Source of the DNA: a virus
Length of the DNA: 53,037 nt
Reading direction: 5' to 3' (one strand)
Virus genome (UHGV): UHGV-0150124
This document shows, in pieces, positions 23,544 to 29,219 of this stretch. Under the pieces are notes generated by a model. It worked only from the letters and a program-made list of their open reading frames with translations. It ran no database searches and was not told the DNA's origin. Numbering within the stretch: position 1 is the first letter of the stretch; each line of letters begins with the position of its first letter. The position numbers and the translations under genes were made by a program.

Positions 23544-25028
23544 TTAAAACCCTCGCAGGCGCTTAGGTAACATGAGGCCCATCGCCTGTGGCTGGCTTAG
23601 TTCAGTGATACCCCATACCATAGCATCCATACGGTCAGGGGATTTTTTAGCGGTGGCTGGCACGTATTCCATCATTTGATTTTCCAGCGTGTACAGCTCA
23701 CCAGTGTGTGCCACCCTTCCTTGTGCATACAGTGCCGATATTGGCTCGGCGCGGGCGAACTTACCTTTACTTGCATGCACCTTAACAATACGGCCTTTGA
23801 ATCCGGCATTACGCAACGTGGCCTCTGCCATTTCGCCGCCCTGGTTAGTTTCGATAACCATCGCGTCAGCTTCATGGATGTTGTAGGCGTTCATTGATGC
23901 CTGCGCCCAGTCGTTAGGAGACATGCGGCCTGAGTAGTCGCCATCAACAGAATACTGAGCATTCTTACCGCCACCATAGGCGGAACATGCCACGATCCCT
24001 GTTTCGTCAGACTCATCAGATGATGTTGTCGCCGGGTCAATAGCTATTACAGTGCGTATTTTCTCCTGCGTTATCTGCATCCGGTGCGCTGCGGTTATCA
24101 TTGCTTCAGTCCACAATGCACCCTCTTCGTCGAATTTACGCGGGCGCTGCATGTACTGGGCCTCAAATGACCGTCTGTGTGCCTTCAGTCCTGCTTCATG
24201 GCTGTCATTGTGCTTTTTAGGCCATAGCCAGCCATCTGGCAGATTGTGAGGAATGGGGATAGCGAACTCGTTTTCAGGGTACAAATCCCGATAGTCAACG
24301 CTATTGTCGATCTTCACTGGCAGGTTCAGGTGATGCCATTTCTCCCCGCTCCCACCGCGTAGCAGGTAGCCTGACAAATCATCGTAGTGGATGCGTTGCA
24401 TGATGACGATAACAGGCGTTGTTTGCACTGCCAGACGTGAAGCAAGCGTGTCGTTATAGTTAGTGTTAACCTGCTTTCTCACCACGTCAGAGTAAGCGTC
24501 AGCGGGTTTTAATGGGTCATCGATGATTAACGCGCCGTTAAATCCCGGTTCCATATACCCTGCACGGAACCCAGTAACCTGACCAAGCGATGACGTTGCA
24601 TACACGCCGCCGCCGTATTCAGTCCACCACATCGATTTACTGTTGGCATCGTTGCGGATCTTCATGGTCCACATTGCCTGATATTCAGGCGTACAGATCA
24701 TGTTTCTTACTGTCGAGGAATTGAGTAGCGCCAGGTTGTTGGAATAGGAAACGTGAAGGAAGCGTGTGCGGGGATTTATTGCGAGGGACCGCGCCATCAT
24801 ATTGATAGTGGCGATCATGGTTTTGCCGTACCCTGGGGGAATATTGATGATGAGTCGGGTTATCTCACCATTGATAACGCGTTGCAGTGCATCACGGATG
24901 GCTAAATGATGGCCTGAGATTAACATCTTCGTTCCGTTTGCTTGCTTATAGAAGTAGCGATTGAAAAACAGGCCATCGTTTTCACATTTTGACTGAATAA
25001 CCCTTTCTTTGATGGACAACATAATCAC
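23544..25028 (-). CDS. terL: Terminase large subunit
   Basis: 494 aa, Walker-A-like PPGYGKT, acidic nuclease-type C-terminal half; follows terS with overlapping stop-start. Confidence 0.85.
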   Translation of the reverse strand: MIMLSIKERVIQSKCENDGLFFNRYFYKQANGTKMLISGHHLAIRDALQRVINGEITRLIINIPPGYGKTMIATINMMARSLAINPRTRFLHVSYSNNLALLNSSTVRNMICTPEYQAMWTMKIRNDANSKSMWWTEYGGGVYATSSLGQVTGFRAGYMEPGFNGALIIDDPLKPADAYSDVVRKQVNTNYNDTLASRLAVQTTPVIVIMQRIHYDDLSGYLLRGGSGEKWHHLNLPVKIDNSVDYRDLYPENEFAIPIPHNLPDGWLWPKKHNDSHEAGLKAHRRSFEAQYMQRPRKFDEEGALWTEAMITAAHRMQITQEKIRTVIAIDPATTSSDESDETGIVACSAYGGGKNAQYSVDGDYSGRMSPNDWAQASMNAYNIHEADAMVIETNQGGEMAEATLRNAGFKGRIVKVHASKGKFARAEPISALYAQGRVAHTGELYTLENQMMEYVPATAKKSPDRMDAMVWGITELSQPQAMGLMLPKRLRGF

Positions 25029-25510
25029 ACCTCGTCTTCTACTTCCTGGACGATGCTGGCGATCTCTTCTTTCGTGACTTCAACCTGGACGGGCGCTTCT
25101 TCCTTATTGCCAACAATCTCCTGTGTGACACGTTCGCCGTATTTACGCGGTTGCAGTTTTGCCAATAGCCATTTACGCGTTTCAATCATTAATTGGTGGC
25201 GGCGTAGTTGGTCTTTATCAACGTTCTTAGCATCATCAGCTATATCGAGGATCTCATCAGCTAATACCTCGAAGCCGATTTCCTTCGCGCGCATGTACAT
25301 GTCCGAGAATTCCGGCACGTCTCTAAACCATTTCAGGATTGTTGAACGGGTAGGCATACCAGGCATCTTCGAAATTTTGTTAACGCTCTGACCGTCCGCC
25401 ACCAGTTCACAGATTTCTAACGCCTTTTCTTCTGTATAACCATGCGGACGACCCACCCTTTTTGCGGCTGGCTTTTTATCGTCAGCATTTGCCTTTTTAG
25501 TGCGGGCCAT
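25025..25510 (-). CDS. terS: Terminase small subunit
   Basis: 161 aa, N-terminal HTH-like segment, acidic C-terminus, overlaps terL start. Confidence 0.7.
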   Translation of the reverse strand: MARTKKANADDKKPAAKRVGRPHGYTEEKALEICELVADGQSVNKISKMPGMPTRSTILKWFRDVPEFSDMYMRAKEIGFEVLADEILDIADDAKNVDKDQLRRHQLMIETRKWLLAKLQPRKYGERVTQEIVGNKEEAPVQVEVTKEEIASIVQEVEDEV

Positions 25511-25520
25511 AATTCACCTC

Positions 25521-25604
25521 TCAATATTTATTGATGATATATACGCAAGCTACAAAACTTGCGCAGTATGTTAAAACTTCCAACCAGTCGAACAGCTCTT
25601 TCAT
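25521..25604 (-). CDS. Tiny ORF 27 aa (MKELFDWLEVLTYCASFVACVYIINKY)
   Basis: Hand-translated; stop overlaps the terS ribosome-binding site. Confidence 0.25.
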   Translation of the reverse strand: MKELFDWLEVLTYCASFVACVYIINKY

Positions 25605-25674
25605 TGTTTACATTTATGCGAAGAAAACGATAACGACTAACAACGTGCATATAGCCATAATTAAGAAGTCACTG

Positions 25675-25749
25675 TCAGACGTTGATAATCACCCCAATAA
25701 TAATTAACGCAACGGTACACACGATCAACATAATATCAATAGCATTCAT
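25675..25749 (-). CDS. Tiny hydrophobic peptide 24 aa (MNAIDIMLIVCTVALIIIGVIINV)
   Basis: Hand-translated; AGGTGA 4 nt upstream of ATG; single predicted TM helix. Confidence 0.3.
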   Translation of the reverse strand: MNAIDIMLIVCTVALIIIGVIINV

Positions 25750-25757
25750 GCGTTCAC

Positions 25758-25826
25758 CTATTGAGTTAACGCGATCATGGTAAAAACAATCGCAACGATC
25801 AGGAAAAAGAAATCAAGCCATTTCAT
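25758..25826 (-). CDS. Tiny hydrophobic peptide 22 aa (MKWLDFFFLIVAIVFTMIALTQ)
   Basis: Hand-translated; GGGAG upstream. Confidence 0.3.
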   Translation of the reverse strand: MKWLDFFFLIVAIVFTMIALTQ

Positions 25827-25889
25827 TTTTTCATCTCCCGGTATACGTCCACAGCAATAACCACAACTACAGCCACCAGCAATAGCATC

Positions 25890-25997
25890 TCATATGCGTT
25901 CATTGACACTACCTATAACCAGACCAATGATGATAATTACGGCTACTACGCAAAACATCATCCCGCACATAATCGCCAGTAATTCGAATATATCCAT
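25890..25997 (-). CDS. Tiny hydrophobic peptide 35 aa (MDIFELLAIMCGMMFCVVAVIIIIGLVIGSVNERI)
   Basis: Hand-translated; AGGTGA upstream; C-terminal part of a track ORF. Confidence 0.3.
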   Translation of the reverse strand: MDIFELLAIMCGMMFCVVAVIIIIGLVIGSVNERI

Positions 25998-26005
25998 GCC
26001 GTCAC

Positions 26006-26080
26006 CTATACAACATTCTTCCACCAGAAACAGATAATGACGGCGACCAACGACCACCAGATGAGATCGTAAATATTCAT
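26006..26080 (-). CDS. Tiny hydrophobic peptide 24 aa (MNIYDLIWWSLVAVIICFWWKNVV)
   Basis: Hand-translated; GAAGG upstream. Confidence 0.3.
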   Translation of the reverse strand: MNIYDLIWWSLVAVIICFWWKNVV

Positions 26081-26091
26081 GGTGAATACCT

Positions 26092-26166
26092 TCAGCTTTC
26101 AATGAGTATCATGATCGCCAGCCATACAGCGACGCAGACAGAAAGGATAATTAGCGGGTCAATCAT
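26092..26166 (-). CDS. Tiny hydrophobic peptide 24 aa (MIDPLIILSVCVAVWLAIMILIES)
   Basis: Hand-translated; GGGGTG upstream. Confidence 0.3.
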   Translation of the reverse strand: MIDPLIILSVCVAVWLAIMILIES

Positions 26167-26171
26167 ATTTT

Positions 26172-26276
26172 TCACCCCACCAAATACTTGATATATACGT
26201 TTATCAGCGCAACTATAATAGAACCCACAAGAAACACAGAAACGCCGATTAATCCGGCGATGATGTAAGCATCCAT
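26172..26276 (-). CDS. Tiny hydrophobic peptide 34 aa (MDAYIIAGLIGVSVFLVGSIIVALINVYIKYLVG)
   Basis: Hand-translated; weak RBS. Confidence 0.3.
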   Translation of the reverse strand: MDAYIIAGLIGVSVFLVGSIIVALINVYIKYLVG

Positions 26277-26282
26277 AATATC

Positions 26283-26349
26283 AATGTCCGTATATCAAGA
26301 TCACAGCGGCAGCTATGCCAACAAATACGCCTAACAGAAAAGTAAACAT
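26283..26349 (-). CDS. Tiny hydrophobic peptide 22 aa (MFTFLLGVFVGIAAAVILIYGH)
   Basis: Hand-translated; GAGGG 6 nt upstream, 2 nt after stop of preceding gene. Confidence 0.3.
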
Positions 26350-26351
26350 AA

Positions 26352-26924
26352 TTACCCTCTCTTAAAGCTCATAACGCGCGGTACAAGCGCCTCTTTTGCT
26401 TTCGGCTTACGTTTGCCTTTCTTAGCTGGTTTTTTCTCTTCTTTCGGCTCCTCTGCCTGTTCTGCTGCATCAGTCGCCTGCTCTGCCTTTTCTAACGCCT
26501 GCTCAACGACTTCAGCCGCCTGCATCGCTGTGATCTGTGCTTCGTTTGATTCTGCTAGGATAGGGAAAAACGCATCGAAGATACGGCCTACCATGTAAGC
26601 GTAAGTCTCATTCGCCGGATGGGTAGGATCCGTGGTAGCCACGACGCCTACATCACTTAAAACGTGGAATGTAGTGTGGGCGCATTCATGGACCAGCGTT
26701 CCCAACTCATTGTTGAATACTGCGATCACGTAGAAGTTACCACCATTCTCGCCAGTGCAAGTAAGCGTTAATCCTCCAGCCAACTCGAAATCAGGTTCAA
26801 TCGGAATTCCTGCCTTTTCGCAAAATTCATAGAACATCTCGCGGGTCGGGCAAAAGAAAACGGTTGTATGCTCAAAGAGTGGGATCTTAAATTGAGGCAA
26901 TTTAATGCCTTTAGCCTTAGCCAT
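26352..26924 (-). CDS. Hypothetical protein with HExxH motif and Lys-rich acidic/basic tail
   Basis: 190 aa; LVHECAHTTFH contains HExxH; C-terminal AEQAEEPKEEKKPAKKGKRKPKAKE tail. Confidence 0.4.
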   Translation of the reverse strand: MAKAKGIKLPQFKIPLFEHTTVFFCPTREMFYEFCEKAGIPIEPDFELAGGLTLTCTGENGGNFYVIAVFNNELGTLVHECAHTTFHVLSDVGVVATTDPTHPANETYAYMVGRIFDAFFPILAESNEAQITAMQAAEVVEQALEKAEQATDAAEQAEEPKEEKKPAKKGKRKPKAKEALVPRVMSFKRG

Positions 26925-27203
26925 CAGAATAATCTCCTATTCTGAAAAATATAACCCCCGCAAAACTCGACACCGCAGGGAGTGAAAACAGTTATAAAAC
27001 ACTGAAAACGGCGCTTCATCAGTACCGTTTCCAGAATTTTATAAAATTGGTGAATGGCGCTTTCTTCTACCCAGGTAGCGCCTGACCTGTTAATGGGACT
27101 GTTGATCCGGTATTACGTGTTTTTGACTATTCCGCCGTCGCTCGCGGGAAGGATTGGCCCGGTTATGGCTGGCTGACAGAAACGGCGACACGTCAACGCG
27201 CTG

Positions 27204-27692
27204 CTATTCTTTGCGTAAACACTGAGTTTTGATGTAGTCCTGTAGGCCAGTGATCTGTGCGTCTTTCTCTTTTAGTTGTTCTCTGAGGGATAGATAAGAT
27301 TGTCTAGCAGTGGCATCAAGCTCGCAGGTGGCTCCATCAATGCGGCTGGCGGTCGCGGCGGGGTCGGACACTCGCACGGGTATTGCGTTGACGCGCAACC
27401 GGATAGTACCGTTATCAATGCCAGTGCGCAGATCGGCAATGTCAGATCTGATAGCTTTAATCTCATCGTGATACCTCTTATCAAGTTTTGACAGTTCGGC
27501 GTTTCGCTCCTTCATCTGCTGAATAGTGTTACTTGCCGTTTTCAGTGCGCCTTTCGTTACCGTGACTTCTTCCTGTAACCTTGCCGCCTCACCCTGGTAA
27601 TAACATGTTACGGCGGTCAGTCCGGCAATAATGCAAACAACAGCGGCGATAATTAACGCCTTCACCTTGTCCACGTTTCCCCCCATTCGCAA
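27204..27692 (-). CDS. Rz: Rz-like i-spanin
   Basis: N-terminal TM helix, coiled-coil body, C-terminus resembles lambda Rz ([22 protein letters not shown]...CL). Confidence 0.8.
27272..27466 (-). CDS. Rz1: Rz1-like o-spanin embedded in Rz in another frame
   Basis: Lipobox LSGC after a signal sequence, then Pro-rich [14 protein letters not shown]; fully nested within Rz. Confidence 0.75.
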   Translation of the reverse strand: MRLKLSDLTLPICALALITVLSGCASTQYPCECPTPPRPPAALMEPPASLMPLLDNLIYPSENN

Positions 27693-28153
27693 ACGGCATA
27701 TTCAACCTCGCGGCGGTTTACCAGGCCTTGCCACTTCTTACCGCCAGCGTATACCCAGCGTTTAAGCTGTGCGCACGCTTCTGATTTCTTGCCGTCATTG
27801 AGTAGTTTTAGTAAGGTTGATGTTTTGAAGTTGGTAGCGCCTACGTTATAGGCGAATGAATAAAGTGCTGCGCGGGTAAAATCTGATATTTCGACTTTGA
27901 TATATGGGTCAATCGCTTTTGCGGTCTTGTGTAGATCTTTATTTAACAAAGCATCGCATTCTGATTGCGTGTAAGTCTTACCAAGCATGATGTCTTTTCC
28001 GACGTGTCCATAACATATCGTGTAAACACCGATGACATCTCTGTATGGCTTATACTCAACGCCTTCAAGATCTTTTATCATCACCGCCGCAATAGCGATC
28101 GCCCCACCAGCCGCCGCCGCAACAATCTTGTTTTTCAGCGATTGGCTAATCAT
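27662..28153 (-). CDS. SAR endolysin (T4-lysozyme-type muramidase)
   Basis: Start at MISQSLKNK; Gly/Ala-rich N-terminal signal-anchor [17 protein letters not shown]; catalytic E-x8-D-x5-T spacing in [17 protein letters not shown]. Confidence 0.85.
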
Positions 28154-28154
28154 G

Positions 28155-28355
28155 TTACTTATTCCCCATTCGCGCGTCGTGTTCCTCTTGCGCTCGCTTG
28201 TTCTCCTGTGATTTGAAGTAATAGTTAACGGCAAATGTGCCTATGGTTGATAAGATACCCACAAAGACAGCAATATCATTAATGGTTATCGCGCCGAAAA
28301 AAGCAGTTACGGCCCCGGTCACATACGCGCACGCCTCCCGTATTCTGTCGAACAT
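28155..28355 (-). CDS. Holin (class II / pinholin-like)
   Basis: 66 aa, two hydrophobic segments, charged C-terminus [19 protein letters not shown]; stop overlaps SAR endolysin start. Confidence 0.65.
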
Positions 28356-28370
28356 AGATTTTCCTCCAAC

Positions 28371-28397
28371 AAAGCAAAAACCCGGCTCGTGGCCGGG
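28371..28397 (-). terminator. tR'-like intrinsic terminator just upstream of the holin RBS
   Basis: On minus strand: hairpin CCCGGC-CACGA-GCCGGG followed by TTTTTGCTTTG, then GGAGGA and the holin ATG. Confidence 0.55.
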
Positions 28398-28460
28398 TAA
28401 TTACAATTTCGCATTGTTAGGAAATATTTTAATCTATTTGTTTTTTATGCGCGATTATGG

Positions 28461-28643
28461 CTACAAATCACTAACTTTCACCAAATCGCCATTATCAAGC
28501 CAGATTTTAATTGTTTCTCGCGTCGTCTTGATGATTGGCGCTACCCACTCACCATCGCTAACGCAAACGCGAATATCACCACCCTCTACGCGATAAAACA
28601 TCTTGTCGATTAGTGTTACGGCGTATATACCATCTTCAATCAT
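28461..28643 (-). CDS. Hypothetical small protein
   Basis: 60-aa ORF with AGGAG RBS. Confidence 0.4.
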   Translation of the reverse strand: MIEDGIYAVTLIDKMFYRVEGGDIRVCVSDGEWVAPIIKTTRETIKIWLDNGDLVKVSDL

Positions 28644-28646
28644 TTC

Positions 28647-28823
28647 TTGCGCTCCTTAATAACCCTTTTGATCTGCGCGCGCGGCATCTACGAGAGCAAT
28701 AAACACCGCTACAGGCCAGAAAGGAATCTCAAGACCACCACGATCGAGATCATTAGATTTGATAAAACAAGACATCAGGATAGCGCCAGCAATATAAAGG
28801 AGAAACACAGCAATGATAAGACA
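28647..28823 (-). CDS. Small membrane protein (~58 aa)
   Basis: Hand-translated MIECLIIAVFLLYIAGAILMSCFIK...; below the track length cut-off. Confidence 0.3.
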
Positions 28824-28956
28824 TTCAATCATCCTCTTTCTCCCCGCCTAAATATTGATATATTTCTTCAGCATTTTCCCCGCGCTCAAAACAATAATGT
28901 TCAAACATGCGCCAATTTTCACTAAGAAACATAACAATAAAATTGTTAACGTATTC
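28816..28956 (-). CDS. Small ORF (~46 aa)
   Basis: Hand-translated MDDEYVNNFIVMFLSENWRMFEHY...; start follows stop of upstream gene. Confidence 0.25.
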
Positions 28957-28967
28957 GTCATCCATAG

Positions 28968-29219
28968 TTAATCATCCTCTTCATCATCTTCTTGTTCAGC
29001 CAGGAAATCATCTACGGCACGGTAAGTAACTGGAGGGATATATTCGAAGTCATCCGTATCAAGATCGAGCGTCCTGCTGTCGCCGTCGTCGTCAATCGTA
29101 TTCATTCCCAACTCACCGAAAGGGCCGTACCCAATGTGGCCCAGGTATTCGCAACCAATCGTAAACCCAGGGTATTCGCCTTTACACCGGATTTTGTAAG
29201 GTTTATTTGATGCGCTCAA
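28968..29219 (-). CDS. Hypothetical protein with acidic C-terminus
   Basis: 83-aa ORF ending EQEDDEEDD. Confidence 0.4.
   Translation of the reverse strand: MSASNKPYKIRCKGEYPGFTIGCEYLGHIGYGPFGELGMNTIDDDGDSRTLDLDTDDFEYIPPVTYRAVDDFLAEQEDDEEDD

What the first reader, a model, noticed from the sequence alone, without database searches (positions are those of the whole stretch)
25521..26349. Dense tandem array of eight tiny hydrophobic-peptide ORFs between terS and the lysis region
The 840-bp gap is tiled on the minus strand by eight back-to-back ORFs of 22-35 codons. Most have a Shine-Dalgarno-like sequence and seven encode essentially a single transmembrane helix with a similar opening (M-D/N/K-x-I/Y/F-D/E...). 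Gaps between them are 5-11 nt except one ~60-nt gap. None is long enough to appear in the ORF track. I know of no standard lambdoid function here; they could be a family of membrane-active peptides (holin/antiholin modulators, superinfection exclusion, type-I-toxin-like).
Basis: seen in the sequence. Interest (0 to 1): 0.8.

Follow-up and report, generated by a model that had tools for sequence, protein, structure and literature searches.

The report
Hypervariable array of tiny membrane-peptide genes
An apparently empty 840-base stretch just before the DNA-packaging genes of an E. coli prophage holds nine or ten back-to-back mini-genes, each encoding one membrane-spanning helix of 22-35 residues; related phages carry the same kind of array, with 3-13 genes from about 18 families, under purifying selection, and gene finders miss nearly all of them.

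Summary
On the minus strand, 25521-26349 holds nine ATG-started ORFs of 22-35 codons. A tenth cassette has lost its start codon. They cover 86% of the gap; 2000 shuffles gave a mean of 1.4 such ORFs and at most 5.

The host element is not lambdoid. It belongs to the mEp021/mEpimmI coliphage group. In 71 related loci the same gap holds 3-13 mini-ORFs (median 10). They come from about 18 families in one fixed order, giving 55 different architectures.

The called frame is under purifying selection: pooled pN/pS is 0.25, against roughly 0.5-3.6 in the shifted frames and 0.14 for terS. SD-like motifs precede 81% of starts. The median spacer is 5 nt and 37% of junctions overlap.

The peptides have an acidic N-terminus, a hydrophobic core and often a basic C-terminus. 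None matches Pfam, PHROGs, NCBIfam or PADLOC. RefSeq leaves the gap empty.

In other phage lineages the upstream HExxH gene usually lies within a few bases of the next gene, often terS. The array is therefore a lineage-specific insertion.

Best reading: real, late-expressed, translationally coupled single-helix inner-membrane mini-proteins forming a fast-turnover accessory locus. Their function is inferred, not shown.

The parts
26281..26349 (-). Cassette A: MFTFLLGVFVGIAAAVILIYGH (22 aa). It starts 2 nt after the stop of the upstream 190-aa gene.
   Evidence: Family found in 31 of 71 loci. pN/pS 0.40.
26172..26276 (-). Cassette B: MDAYIIAGLIGVSVFLVGSIIVALINVYIKYLVG (34 aa).
   Evidence: Found in 60 of 71 loci. 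pN/pS 0.27. It is the only window peptide present in the 15-billion-protein collection, named 'hypothetical' or 'putative membrane protein'.
26092..26166 (-). Cassette D: MIDPLIILSVCVAVWLAIMILIES (24 aa from the ATG; an upstream GTG at 26175 would give 27 aa).
   Evidence: Found in 65 of 71 loci. pN/pS 0.21; 12 of 18 variable sites are at codon position 3.
26006..26080 (-). Cassette E: MNIYDLIWWSLVAVIICFWWKNVV (24 aa). The hydrophobic core is flanked by Trp pairs.
   Evidence: Found in 46 of 71 loci. pN/pS 0.28, against 1.07 and 1.49 in the shifted frames. This rejects the 70-aa fused ORF 25890-26102 that the ORF listing reports here and that PGAP calls in some relatives.
25890..25997 (-). Cassette F: MDIFELLAIMCGMMFCVVAVIIIIGLVIGSVNERI (35 aa). 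It overlaps the start of G by 14 nt.
   Evidence: Found in 34 of 71 loci. pN/pS 0.13.
25823..25903 (-). Cassette G: MNAYEMLLLVAVVVVIAVDVYREMKK (26 aa from the ATG). It has a basic C-terminus.
   Evidence: Found in 68 of 71 loci. pN/pS 0.24.
25758..25826 (-). Cassette I: MKWLDFFFLIVAIVFTMIALTQ (22 aa). Its start overlaps the stop of G (ATGA).
   Evidence: Found in 65 of 71 loci. pN/pS 0.095.
25675..25749 (-). Cassette J: MNAIDIMLIVCTVALIIIGVIINV (24 aa).
   Evidence: Found in 51 of 71 loci. pN/pS 0.40.
25614..25682 (-). Cassette K, start-less here. The frame reads (T)SDSDFLIMAICTLLVVIVFFA, with ACG in place of ATG at 25682-25680. An internal ATG at 25658 would give a 14-aa remnant, MAICTLLVVIVFFA, with no SD motif.
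   Evidence: Intact 22-aa K is present in most relatives (family found in 50 of 71 loci).
25521..25604 (-). Cassette N: MKELFDWLEVLTYCASFVACVYIINKY (27 aa). It is the last cassette and ends 10 nt before the terS ATG.
   Evidence: Found in 63 of 71 loci. pN/pS 0.015 with pS 0.22. The overlapping 40-aa alternative frame is not conserved.
26352..26924 (-). Upstream flank: a 190-aa protein with an invariant HExxH...NE..Y motif and a conserved Lys/Arg-rich tail. It matches phrog_1365. One source names a 58%-identical relative 'PolyVal metallopeptidase'.
   Evidence: In other phage lineages this gene usually lies within a few bases of the next gene, often terS.
25025..25510 (-). Downstream flank: small terminase (Sf6_terminase type), followed by terL at 23544-25028.

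Best explanation
The gap is a tandem, co-directional array of real mini-genes. Each has its own Shine-Dalgarno motif and ATG. Most are separated from the previous stop by only a few bases or overlap it, so the array is read as one polycistronic, translationally coupled stretch of the phage late transcript. That stretch runs from the 190-aa HExxH gene into terS and terL.

Each product is essentially one hydrophobic helix with a short acidic N-terminus and often a basic C-terminus. This predicts insertion into the inner membrane with the N-terminus out and the C-terminus in.

The locus is a lineage-specific insertion in mEp021/mEpimmI coliphages. It evolves by whole-cassette gain and loss at the conserved SD/ATG junctions and by divergence of paralogues, so each phage carries its own mix of 3-13 peptides.

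Proposed mechanism (inferred): late in infection the cell membrane is loaded with a cocktail of single-helix peptides that act inside the bilayer by sequence-specific helix-helix binding to membrane proteins of the host or of rival phages. This would be a fast-turnover accessory, host-interaction function. Tuning of the membrane-potential-dependent lysis trigger is the main alternative.

My probabilities: about 0.85-0.9 that these are translated membrane mini-proteins under selection; about 0.35 that they are specific helix binders aimed at host or competitor membrane proteins.
For: Shown:
- ORF tiling is far above chance and confined to one strand.
- The same tiling occurs in all 71 related loci with both flanks identified. 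Median coverage of the gap is 92% and the median is 10 cassettes.
- Selection is frame-specific. Pooled pN/pS is 0.25 and each family lies between 0.015 and 0.45, against 0.48-3.65 in the shifted frames (18 of 28 values above 1) and 0.14 for terS. Variable sites at codon positions 1/2/3 number 95/66/189.
- Prophages whose HExxH protein is only 72% identical keep an array of diverged but still open and hydrophobic ORFs.
- SD-like cores precede 81% of starts, against 16% at random positions. The median spacer is 5 nt and 37% of junctions overlap.
- N-terminal net charge averages -0.98 and C-terminal +0.59. Codon position 2 is 57% T.
- Cassette indels fall exactly at SD/ATG junctions and leave the neighbouring ORFs intact.
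- There are 55 architectures among the 71 loci.
- No promoter-like site on the coding strand, and no conserved terminator, was found inside the array.
- In 80 loci with distant homologues of the HExxH gene there are 0-1 such ORFs. In 49 of them the next gene follows within 5 nt or overlaps.

Inferred: membrane insertion and topology, late expression, and any target.

Support for sequence-specific action rather than generic hydrophobicity: cassettes N and I are more constrained (pN/pS 0.015 and 0.095) than terS.
Against: - There is no direct evidence of translation or of the peptides themselves.
- Several hydrophobic runs are short for a bilayer span (13-16 residues in G, E, N and I).
- Conservation shows no helical-face periodicity. 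Only 1 of 14 families reached P<0.05.
- Roughly half of the variable amino-acid columns (90 of 172) exchange only among A/I/L/M/F/V/W/C, which generic hydrophobic selection would also produce.
- Late expression is unusual for known anti-defence or exclusion genes, and no promoter for expression in the lysogen was found.
- Cassette content varies so freely that no single cassette can be essential.
Confidence: 0.5

Rival explanations
1. Lysis-clock or membrane-potential modulators. The peptides accumulate in the inner membrane late and collectively leak or buffer the proton-motive force, or bind the phage's small holin. This would tune when the holin fires and the signal-anchored endolysin is released. 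Cassette number would set the lysis time.
For: The array lies in the late transcript about 0.85 kb downstream of the lysis cassette. That cassette comprises a 66-aa holin, an endolysin with an N-terminal hydrophobic anchor, and Rz with embedded Rz1. The peptides are type-I-toxin-sized hydrophobic helices. From my own knowledge, random hydrophobic peptides readily depolarise E. coli membranes (the papers listed, PMC7790251 and PMC8309996, were not read here).
Against: The array is inserted at the HExxH-gene|terS junction, not inside the lysis cassette. About 18 separately conserved families, some under very strong sequence constraint, are more than a generic leak needs. A range of 3-13 cassettes would imply very different lysis times among near-identical phages. 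No significant holin-family match was found.
Confidence: 0.25
2. A translated but otherwise functionless relay. The mini-ORFs exist only to keep ribosomes on an inserted stretch of late mRNA. This would prevent Rho-dependent polarity and deliver ribosomes to terS. Their hydrophobicity would be a by-product of T-rich sequence.
For: The chain of SD-ATG ORFs is continuous from the upstream gene to terS, with spacers of about 5 nt and many overlaps. Indels always preserve intact ORFs. No cassette is universal.
Against: A pure relay predicts pN/pS near 1 with only stop codons avoided. The observed pooled value is 0.25, and 0.015-0.13 for N, I and F, with third-position-biased variation. Other lineages manage with no spacer at all, so nothing forces the insert to persist.
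Confidence: 0.1
3. Type I toxin-antitoxin-like modules. Each cassette would be a membrane toxin held in check by an antisense RNA and would stabilise the prophage.
For: Size and hydrophobicity resemble the Ibs, Ldr, TisB and ShoB peptides, which also occur as tandem copies in E. coli (own knowledge). Three weak promoter-like sites lie on the opposite strand inside the array.
Against: There is no match to any Pfam or NCBIfam type I toxin model (the best hit has E=0.29). Spacers of about 5 nt, with overlapping stop/start codons, leave no room for individual promoters and 5' UTRs. The best antisense promoter-like site (25903-25931) lies in a codon stretch that differs in the 32-aa F variants and is absent where F is missing. 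Promoter-like hits in the region number fewer than shuffles give (6 against 10.9).
Confidence: 0.03
4. A non-coding element: a pac/cos packaging site, a structured leader of terS, or another DNA or RNA signal.
For: The position is immediately upstream of terS. The N cassette next to terS is nearly universal.
Against: Purifying selection is frame-specific with abundant synonymous change (pS 0.16-0.54). Cassette presence and absence vary freely. There are no tandem or significant DNA repeats and no Rfam match. Other lineages have no spacer here.
Confidence: 0.02

Closest known systems
Bacterial small membrane proteins of 50 aa or fewer (e.g. KdpF, AcrZ, MgrB, MgtS, PmrR, CydX; review PMC12648545)
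   Same: They are single-helix proteins with almost no soluble part. They act by binding larger membrane proteins inside the bilayer. Annotation pipelines routinely miss them.
   Different: Those are solitary genes, usually 29-49 aa, each with a known partner. Here 9-13 genes of mostly 22-27 codons are packed head to tail in a phage late operon, in about 18 families, with cassette-level presence/absence variation. No sequence similarity was found.
Type I toxins of E. coli (Ibs, Ldr, TisB, ShoB, Hok), some in tandem copies
   Same: They are tiny hydrophobic inner-membrane peptides. Tandem paralogous copies occur. A short polar N-terminus is followed by a helix.
   Different: Each type I toxin has its own promoter, a long 5' UTR and an antisense RNA. 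Here the ORFs are about 5 nt apart or overlapping in one operon, with no antisense partner. There is no match to the toxin family models.
Accessory small membrane proteins of phage lysis cassettes (antiholins, and the P1, P2 and Mu accessory lysis proteins)
   Same: They are late-expressed small membrane proteins encoded near lysis genes that modulate a membrane event.
   Different: Those are one to a few per phage, generally more than 60 aa, and sit inside the lysis cassette. This array sits at the packaging-module boundary and has about 10 members under 36 aa. No significant holin-family match was found.
Pf3 coat protein type of membrane insertion (own knowledge)
   Same: An acidic N-terminal tail, one hydrophobic helix and a basic C-terminus predict N-out/C-in insertion by YidC and the membrane potential.
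   Different: Pf3 coat is a 44-aa virion protein of a filamentous phage. There is no sequence relationship, and insertion was not tested here.
Papillomavirus E5 and artificial 'traptamer' transmembrane proteins; viroporins (own knowledge)
   Same: They are viral proteins that are little more than one transmembrane helix and act by specific helix-helix binding or by oligomerising in the membrane.
   Different: They come from eukaryotic viruses, as single genes of 44 aa or more. This is an analogy only.

Membership tests
Small single-helix membrane proteins (50 aa or fewer) | ORF of 50 codons or fewer with its own translation start signals | tested here: met
   The window ORFs are 22-35 codons. 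An SD-like core precedes 81% of 660 starts, against 16% at random positions.
Small single-helix membrane proteins (50 aa or fewer) | One hydrophobic segment long enough to span or embed in the membrane | tested here: inconclusive
   The best 15-residue hydropathy mean is 2.15-3.45 in all nine window peptides. The uncharged runs are 13-26 residues, and four of them are only 13-16. No dedicated topology predictor was available and no experiment was done.
Small single-helix membrane proteins (50 aa or fewer) | Reading frame conserved under purifying selection | tested here: met
   pN/pS is 0.25 pooled and 0.015-0.45 per family. Shifted frames give 0.48-3.65, mostly above 1.
Small single-helix membrane proteins (50 aa or fewer) | Peptide actually made and located in the membrane | not testable with these tools
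   This needs ribosome profiling, tagging or mass spectrometry.
Type I toxin-antitoxin | Sequence match to a known toxin family (Hok, Ldr, Ibs, TisB, ShoB and others) | tested here: not met
   No Pfam hit. The best NCBIfam hit has E=0.29 at 11.6 bits, against a cut-off of 60.
Type I toxin-antitoxin | Own promoter and 5' UTR, plus an overlapping or adjacent antisense RNA gene | tested here: not met
   The median spacer is 5 nt and 37% of junctions overlap. Antisense promoter-like sites are not above the shuffle expectation and are not conserved.
Type I toxin-antitoxin | Toxicity on overexpression | not testable with these tools
   This needs an experiment.
Holin / antiholin | Match to a holin family, and a position next to the endolysin | tested here: not met
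   No significant Pfam or PHROG holin match for any window peptide. The only lead is phrog_920 at E=0.04 for cassette M, which is absent from this window. The phage already has a 66-aa holin of family PF16080 upstream of its endolysin. The array is separated from the lysis genes by about 0.85 kb, including another gene.
Packaging signal (pac/cos) | A DNA element required near terS and conserved as DNA, not as codons | tested here: not met
   Variation is codon-position-biased with abundant synonymous change. There are 55 architectures in 71 loci, no DNA repeats, and no spacer at all in other lineages.
Known RNA families | Match to an Rfam covariance model | tested here: not met
   Only two sub-threshold chance-level hits were found in 24500-29000.
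Anti-phage defence proteins (PADLOC) | Match to a defence-system protein model | tested here: not met
   No hits at E<=0.1.

The most novel reading that the evidence does not exclude
The array is a natural, combinatorially shuffled library of single-helix 'jamming' peptides. Each cassette would bind a particular membrane protein, such as a membrane-embedded abortive-infection effector, a transporter or injection route used by rival phages, or a membrane protease. It would be expressed from the same late transcript as the terminase, portal and capsid proteins, which some defence systems sense. Cassette gain and loss at the SD/ATG junctions would let the phage population re-assort its repertoire quickly. 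This would be a new class of phage counter-defence or host-takeover locus made only of transmembrane helices.
Probability: 0.2. Interest if true: 0.85.

Novelty: new variant of a known kind. Interest (0 to 1): 0.68.

Why it matters
Small single-helix proteins are known regulators in bacteria. An array of about ten such genes, in about 18 conserved families, re-assorted as cassettes among closely related temperate phages of the human gut, has not been described as far as I could find.

- The paper that defines this phage group (PMC11893012) has no mention of transmembrane segments, small ORFs or terminase in its text.
- RefSeq leaves the gap empty.
- Eight of the nine intact window peptides are absent from a 15-billion-protein collection.

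The case is a concrete example of how much coding capacity the 30-codon limit of gene finders hides in phage genomes. It also offers a tractable system: mEp021 has only five cassettes, and phage isolates exist. With it one could ask what the shortest functional membrane proteins do, how such genes arise and diversify, and whether phages use bare transmembrane helices against host membrane proteins.

Tried and rejected
- Tandem Repeats Finder and the repeat search found no DNA-level periodicity. Only the short junction motif TAGGTGAnnnnATG recurs. The cassettes are therefore old paralogues or convergent, not recent duplications.
- Rfam: nothing.
- The promoter/terminator scan found nothing convincing inside the array.
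- Pfam, PHROGs, NCBIfam and PADLOC: no significant match for any peptide.
A concatenated query returned nothing although 8000 candidates were scored. I treat this as uninformative, because hydrophobic words swamp the prefilter.
- Exact 8-mers of the peptides in IMG/VR hit only the same phage group.
- terS patterns found no relative in the 100,044 species-representative genomes.
- A test for helical-face periodicity of conservation was negative.
- The 'metallopeptidase' next to terS in phage CBW1004C-Prop1 showed no detectable similarity to the 190-aa protein, so I do not use it as evidence.
- The AlphaFold model of the 190-aa protein (pLDDT 76) had no significant Foldseek match in the PDB.
- The diverse alignment A4 was too divergent for a locus search. 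A subset, A5, worked.
- The Cell Reports 2022 paper on small phage genes is not held, so I could not check whether any of these families is listed there.
Full report
**1. The observation**

Reading the minus strand of 25200-26700 and listing all ORFs of at least 20 codons shows nine ATG-started ORFs between the stop of a 190-aa ORF (26352-26924) and the start of terS (25025-25510). I named them by family:
- A 26349-26281
- B 26276-26172
- D 26166-26092
- E 26080-26006
- F 25997-25890
- G 25903-25823
- I 25826-25758
- J 25749-25675
- N 25604-25521

They are 22-35 codons long. Each has a best 15-residue Kyte-Doolittle mean of 2.15-3.45. Together they cover 86% of the 841-nt gap.

The opposite strand has none. 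In 2000 dinucleotide-preserving shuffles the mean was 1.4 such ORFs and the maximum 5. No other 841-nt stretch of the window on either strand has more than three. Codon position 2 is 57% T, as expected for hydrophobic coding.

That gap in fact holds a tenth cassette, K (frame 25682-25614). It is intact in relatives, but here its start is ACG instead of ATG. Two junctions overlap (F/G and G/I).

**2. What the element is**

The region matches the mEp021 group of temperate coliphages (mEp021, mEp010, mEp013, mEp044, mEp515, mEp554, MagusPhagus) at 86-92% identity. It also matches prophages in 35 of 5,426 complete E. coli genomes, one of them at 99.5%. These are the Nus-dependent but non-lambdoid 'mEpimmI' phages (PMC11893012). 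That paper's text has no mention of transmembrane segments, small ORFs or terminase.

Gene order is: holin, endolysin, Rz/Rz1, about 280 nt, the 190-aa gene, the array, terS, terL, portal. All are on one strand.

RefSeq annotation leaves the gap empty (and others). The GenBank phage records made with PHANOTATE call some of the ORFs as 'hypothetical protein'. PGAP occasionally calls a 65-68-aa ORF that fuses cassettes.

An exact look-up in about 15 billion predicted proteins found only B (34 aa) and the 47-aa cassette M of relatives. Every peptide shorter than 30 aa was absent, and so was F. This is consistent with the length limits of gene finders.

**3. Conservation and selection**

I collected 23 annotated loci and 48 IMG/VR loci found through terS.

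In all 71 loci where both flanks could be placed, the gap of 318-1303 nt is tiled in the same way. There are 660 hydrophobic mini-ORFs in total, 3-13 per locus with a median of 10. Median coverage is 92%.

They fall into about 18 families that always occur in the same order: A/A2/A3/A4-B-C-D-E-F-G-H-I-J-K-L-M-N. Some loci add a soluble 47-aa ORF before terS. Presence and absence vary freely, giving 55 architectures in 71 loci. The most common families are G (68 loci), D (65), I (65), N (63) and B (60).

Codon alignments from the 24 sequences first collected (the 23 annotated loci plus the window) give a pooled pN/pS of 0.25, with a range of 0.015 for N to 0.45 for L. The same alignments read in the two shifted frames give 0.48-3.65, with 18 of 28 values above 1. 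terS gives 0.14. Variable sites at codon positions 1/2/3 number 95/66/189 (summed).

Prophages whose upstream protein is only 72% identical still carry an array. Its peptides are strongly diverged but remain open and hydrophobic, and they are recognisably B-, E-, F-, M- and N-like.

It rejects a non-coding element.

**4. Anatomy bearing on expression**

- An SD-like core lies 4-16 nt upstream of 81% of starts, against 16% at random positions in the same gaps.
- The median distance from the previous stop is 5 nt, 89% of distances are 12 nt or less, and 37% of junctions overlap, with ATGA the most common form.
- A starts 2 nt after the upstream gene and N ends 10 nt before terS.
- No promoter-like site on the coding strand and no conserved terminator lie inside the array. 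Promoter-like hits in the region are fewer than in shuffles.
- A terminator-like hairpin sits just upstream of the holin (28398-28380). This fits one antiterminated late transcript, but that is an inference.

Together these features indicate a polycistronic, translationally coupled chain that ends in terS.

**5. The peptides**

Aligning family representatives gives a loose common plan: Met, three variable residues, Asp or Glu, then 13-26 uncharged residues, with sometimes a short basic tail.

Over 247 distinct peptides, 84% have an acidic residue at positions 2-7. The N-terminal seven residues carry a mean charge of -0.98 and the C-terminal seven +0.59. By the positive-inside rule this predicts N-out/C-in.

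Single-linkage clustering at 60% identity joins I, H and F (and apparently L), and also G, E and C. At least part of the diversity therefore comes from old duplications. No DNA-level repeats remain apart from the junction motif TAGGTGAnnnnATG.

DNA alignment shows that cassette gains and losses have their end points at the SD/ATG junctions, for example E+F removed between '...GAAGGTATTCA' and 'CAATGAACGCA'. The neighbouring ORFs stay intact.

**6. Origin**

The upstream 190-aa protein belongs to a widespread family of proteins of about 120 aa with an invariant HExxH...NE..Y motif. It matches phrog_1365, and one database names a 58% relative 'PolyVal metallopeptidase'.

I examined 80 IMG/VR loci from other lineages that encode distant members. 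In 49 of them the next gene follows within 5 nt or overlaps. In several of the loci I looked at, that gene is a small terminase, including ones of the same type as here. None of the 80 has more than one hydrophobic mini-ORF in that position.

Outside the mEp021 group, terS identity drops from at least 84% to below 46%. The peptides' 8-mers occur only in the same contigs. No terS relative was found in species-representative genomes.

The array is therefore a lineage-specific insertion into an otherwise tight junction at the start of the packaging module. It is not tied to the HExxH gene: in mEp013 that gene is truncated by an HNH insertion while the array persists.

**7. How it most likely works**

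Shown: real genes under purifying selection; translation signals and coupling; hydrophobic single-segment products with asymmetric charge; cassette-wise turnover.

Inferred: late co-expression with terminase; insertion in the inner membrane; action within the bilayer.

Some cassettes are more constrained than terS (N at 0.015, I at 0.095). Many distinct families are kept while individual cassettes come and go between near-identical phages. I therefore favour sequence-specific helix-helix binding to membrane proteins of the host or of competing phages, as a fast-evolving accessory function (about 0.35).

The main alternative is tuning of the membrane-potential-dependent lysis trigger (about 0.25). 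Proximity to a holin plus signal-anchored endolysin cassette supports it. The insertion site and the number of separately conserved families weaken it.

A pure ribosome relay (about 0.1) is contradicted by the low pN/pS. Type I toxin modules (about 0.03) and a packaging or RNA signal (about 0.02) fail the tests in the membership table.

Caveats:
- There is no expression evidence.
- Four hydrophobic runs are only 13-16 residues.
- There is no helical periodicity of conservation.
- About half of the variable columns are swaps among A/I/L/M/F/V/W/C.

**8. Comparison with known systems and novelty**

The products resemble bacterial small membrane proteins and type I toxins in size and composition. 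They match no family in Pfam, NCBIfam, PHROGs or PADLOC. They lack the genetic layout of type I systems.

I know of no described phage locus made of about ten tandem genes of 22-35 codons, each encoding a single helix, with cassette-level hypervariability. Literature searches found none. However, one relevant catalogue paper could not be read, and I could not scan all phage genomes for analogous arrays.

I class it as a new variant of a known kind (small single-helix membrane proteins) and score interest at 0.68. It is well supported as real and unannotated, sits in a prevalent gut phage group that has isolates, and is experimentally tractable. Its function remains open.

Noticed in passing
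window 26352-26924 (-): The 190-aa gene just upstream of the array has an HExxH...NE..Y motif that is invariant in homologues at 30-54% identity. It also has a strongly conserved Lys/Arg-rich C-terminal tail (KKGKRKPKAKEALVPRVMSFKRG). It matches phrog_1365 (unknown function), and one source calls a relative 'PolyVal metallopeptidase'. In other phage lineages the roughly 120-aa version usually lies within a few bases of the next gene, often terS. The AlphaFold model (pLDDT 76) has no significant PDB match.
   Followed up: partly
window 25680-25682 (-): Cassette K has ACG where relatives have ATG. The change is a synonymous AAT->AAC in the overlapping Asn codon of cassette J. K is therefore probably silent in this prophage.
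   Followed up: yes
window 25612 (-): The SD of cassette N reads AAATG here, but AAAGG in the 99.5%-identical prophage of strain 2017C-4173W12 and AAGGG or AAAGG in other relatives. N may be translated less well in this copy.
   Followed up: no
window 25025-25510 versus L008: There is a mosaic boundary. The array is 99.5% identical to that of strain 2017C-4173W12, but the terS protein is only 87% identical to that strain's and 99-100% identical to terS in other loci. Some relatives carry a different terS C-terminal tail (…NQTTVLEIIDNLNKEYNTHGD…). A recombination break point therefore lies within terS.
   Followed up: partly
window 27204-28398 (-): The lysis cassette comprises a 66-aa holin (28155-28355, family PF16080 in relatives), an endolysin with an N-terminal hydrophobic signal-anchor-like segment (within 27662-28234), and Rz (27204-27692) with an embedded lipoprotein ORF (27272-27484, lipobox LSGC). 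A strong terminator-like hairpin lies directly upstream of the holin (28398-28380), as expected for an antiterminated late operon.
   Followed up: no
L006 999-1484 (mEp013); L096 2752-3273: HNH endonuclease genes are inserted at different places in this module in some relatives. One lies after a truncated HExxH gene in mEp013. Another lies between the endolysin and Rz in a metagenomic relative.
   Followed up: no
L012 2015-2158, L015 2123-2266, L020 2290-2433, L014 2080-2226: Some relatives have an extra soluble, acidic 47-48-aa ORF (MNDEELKIADEIRKALDSAENNETIYLSEQEVEKMM…) between cassette N and terS. RefSeq annotates it as hypothetical (WP_021537953.1 and others). It is absent from this window.
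   Followed up: no
L011 1299-1688: In one O157:H7 prophage, PGAP calls a 129-aa ORF on the opposite strand across the array. Given the frame-specific selection on the sense strand, this is probably a false gene call.
   Followed up: no
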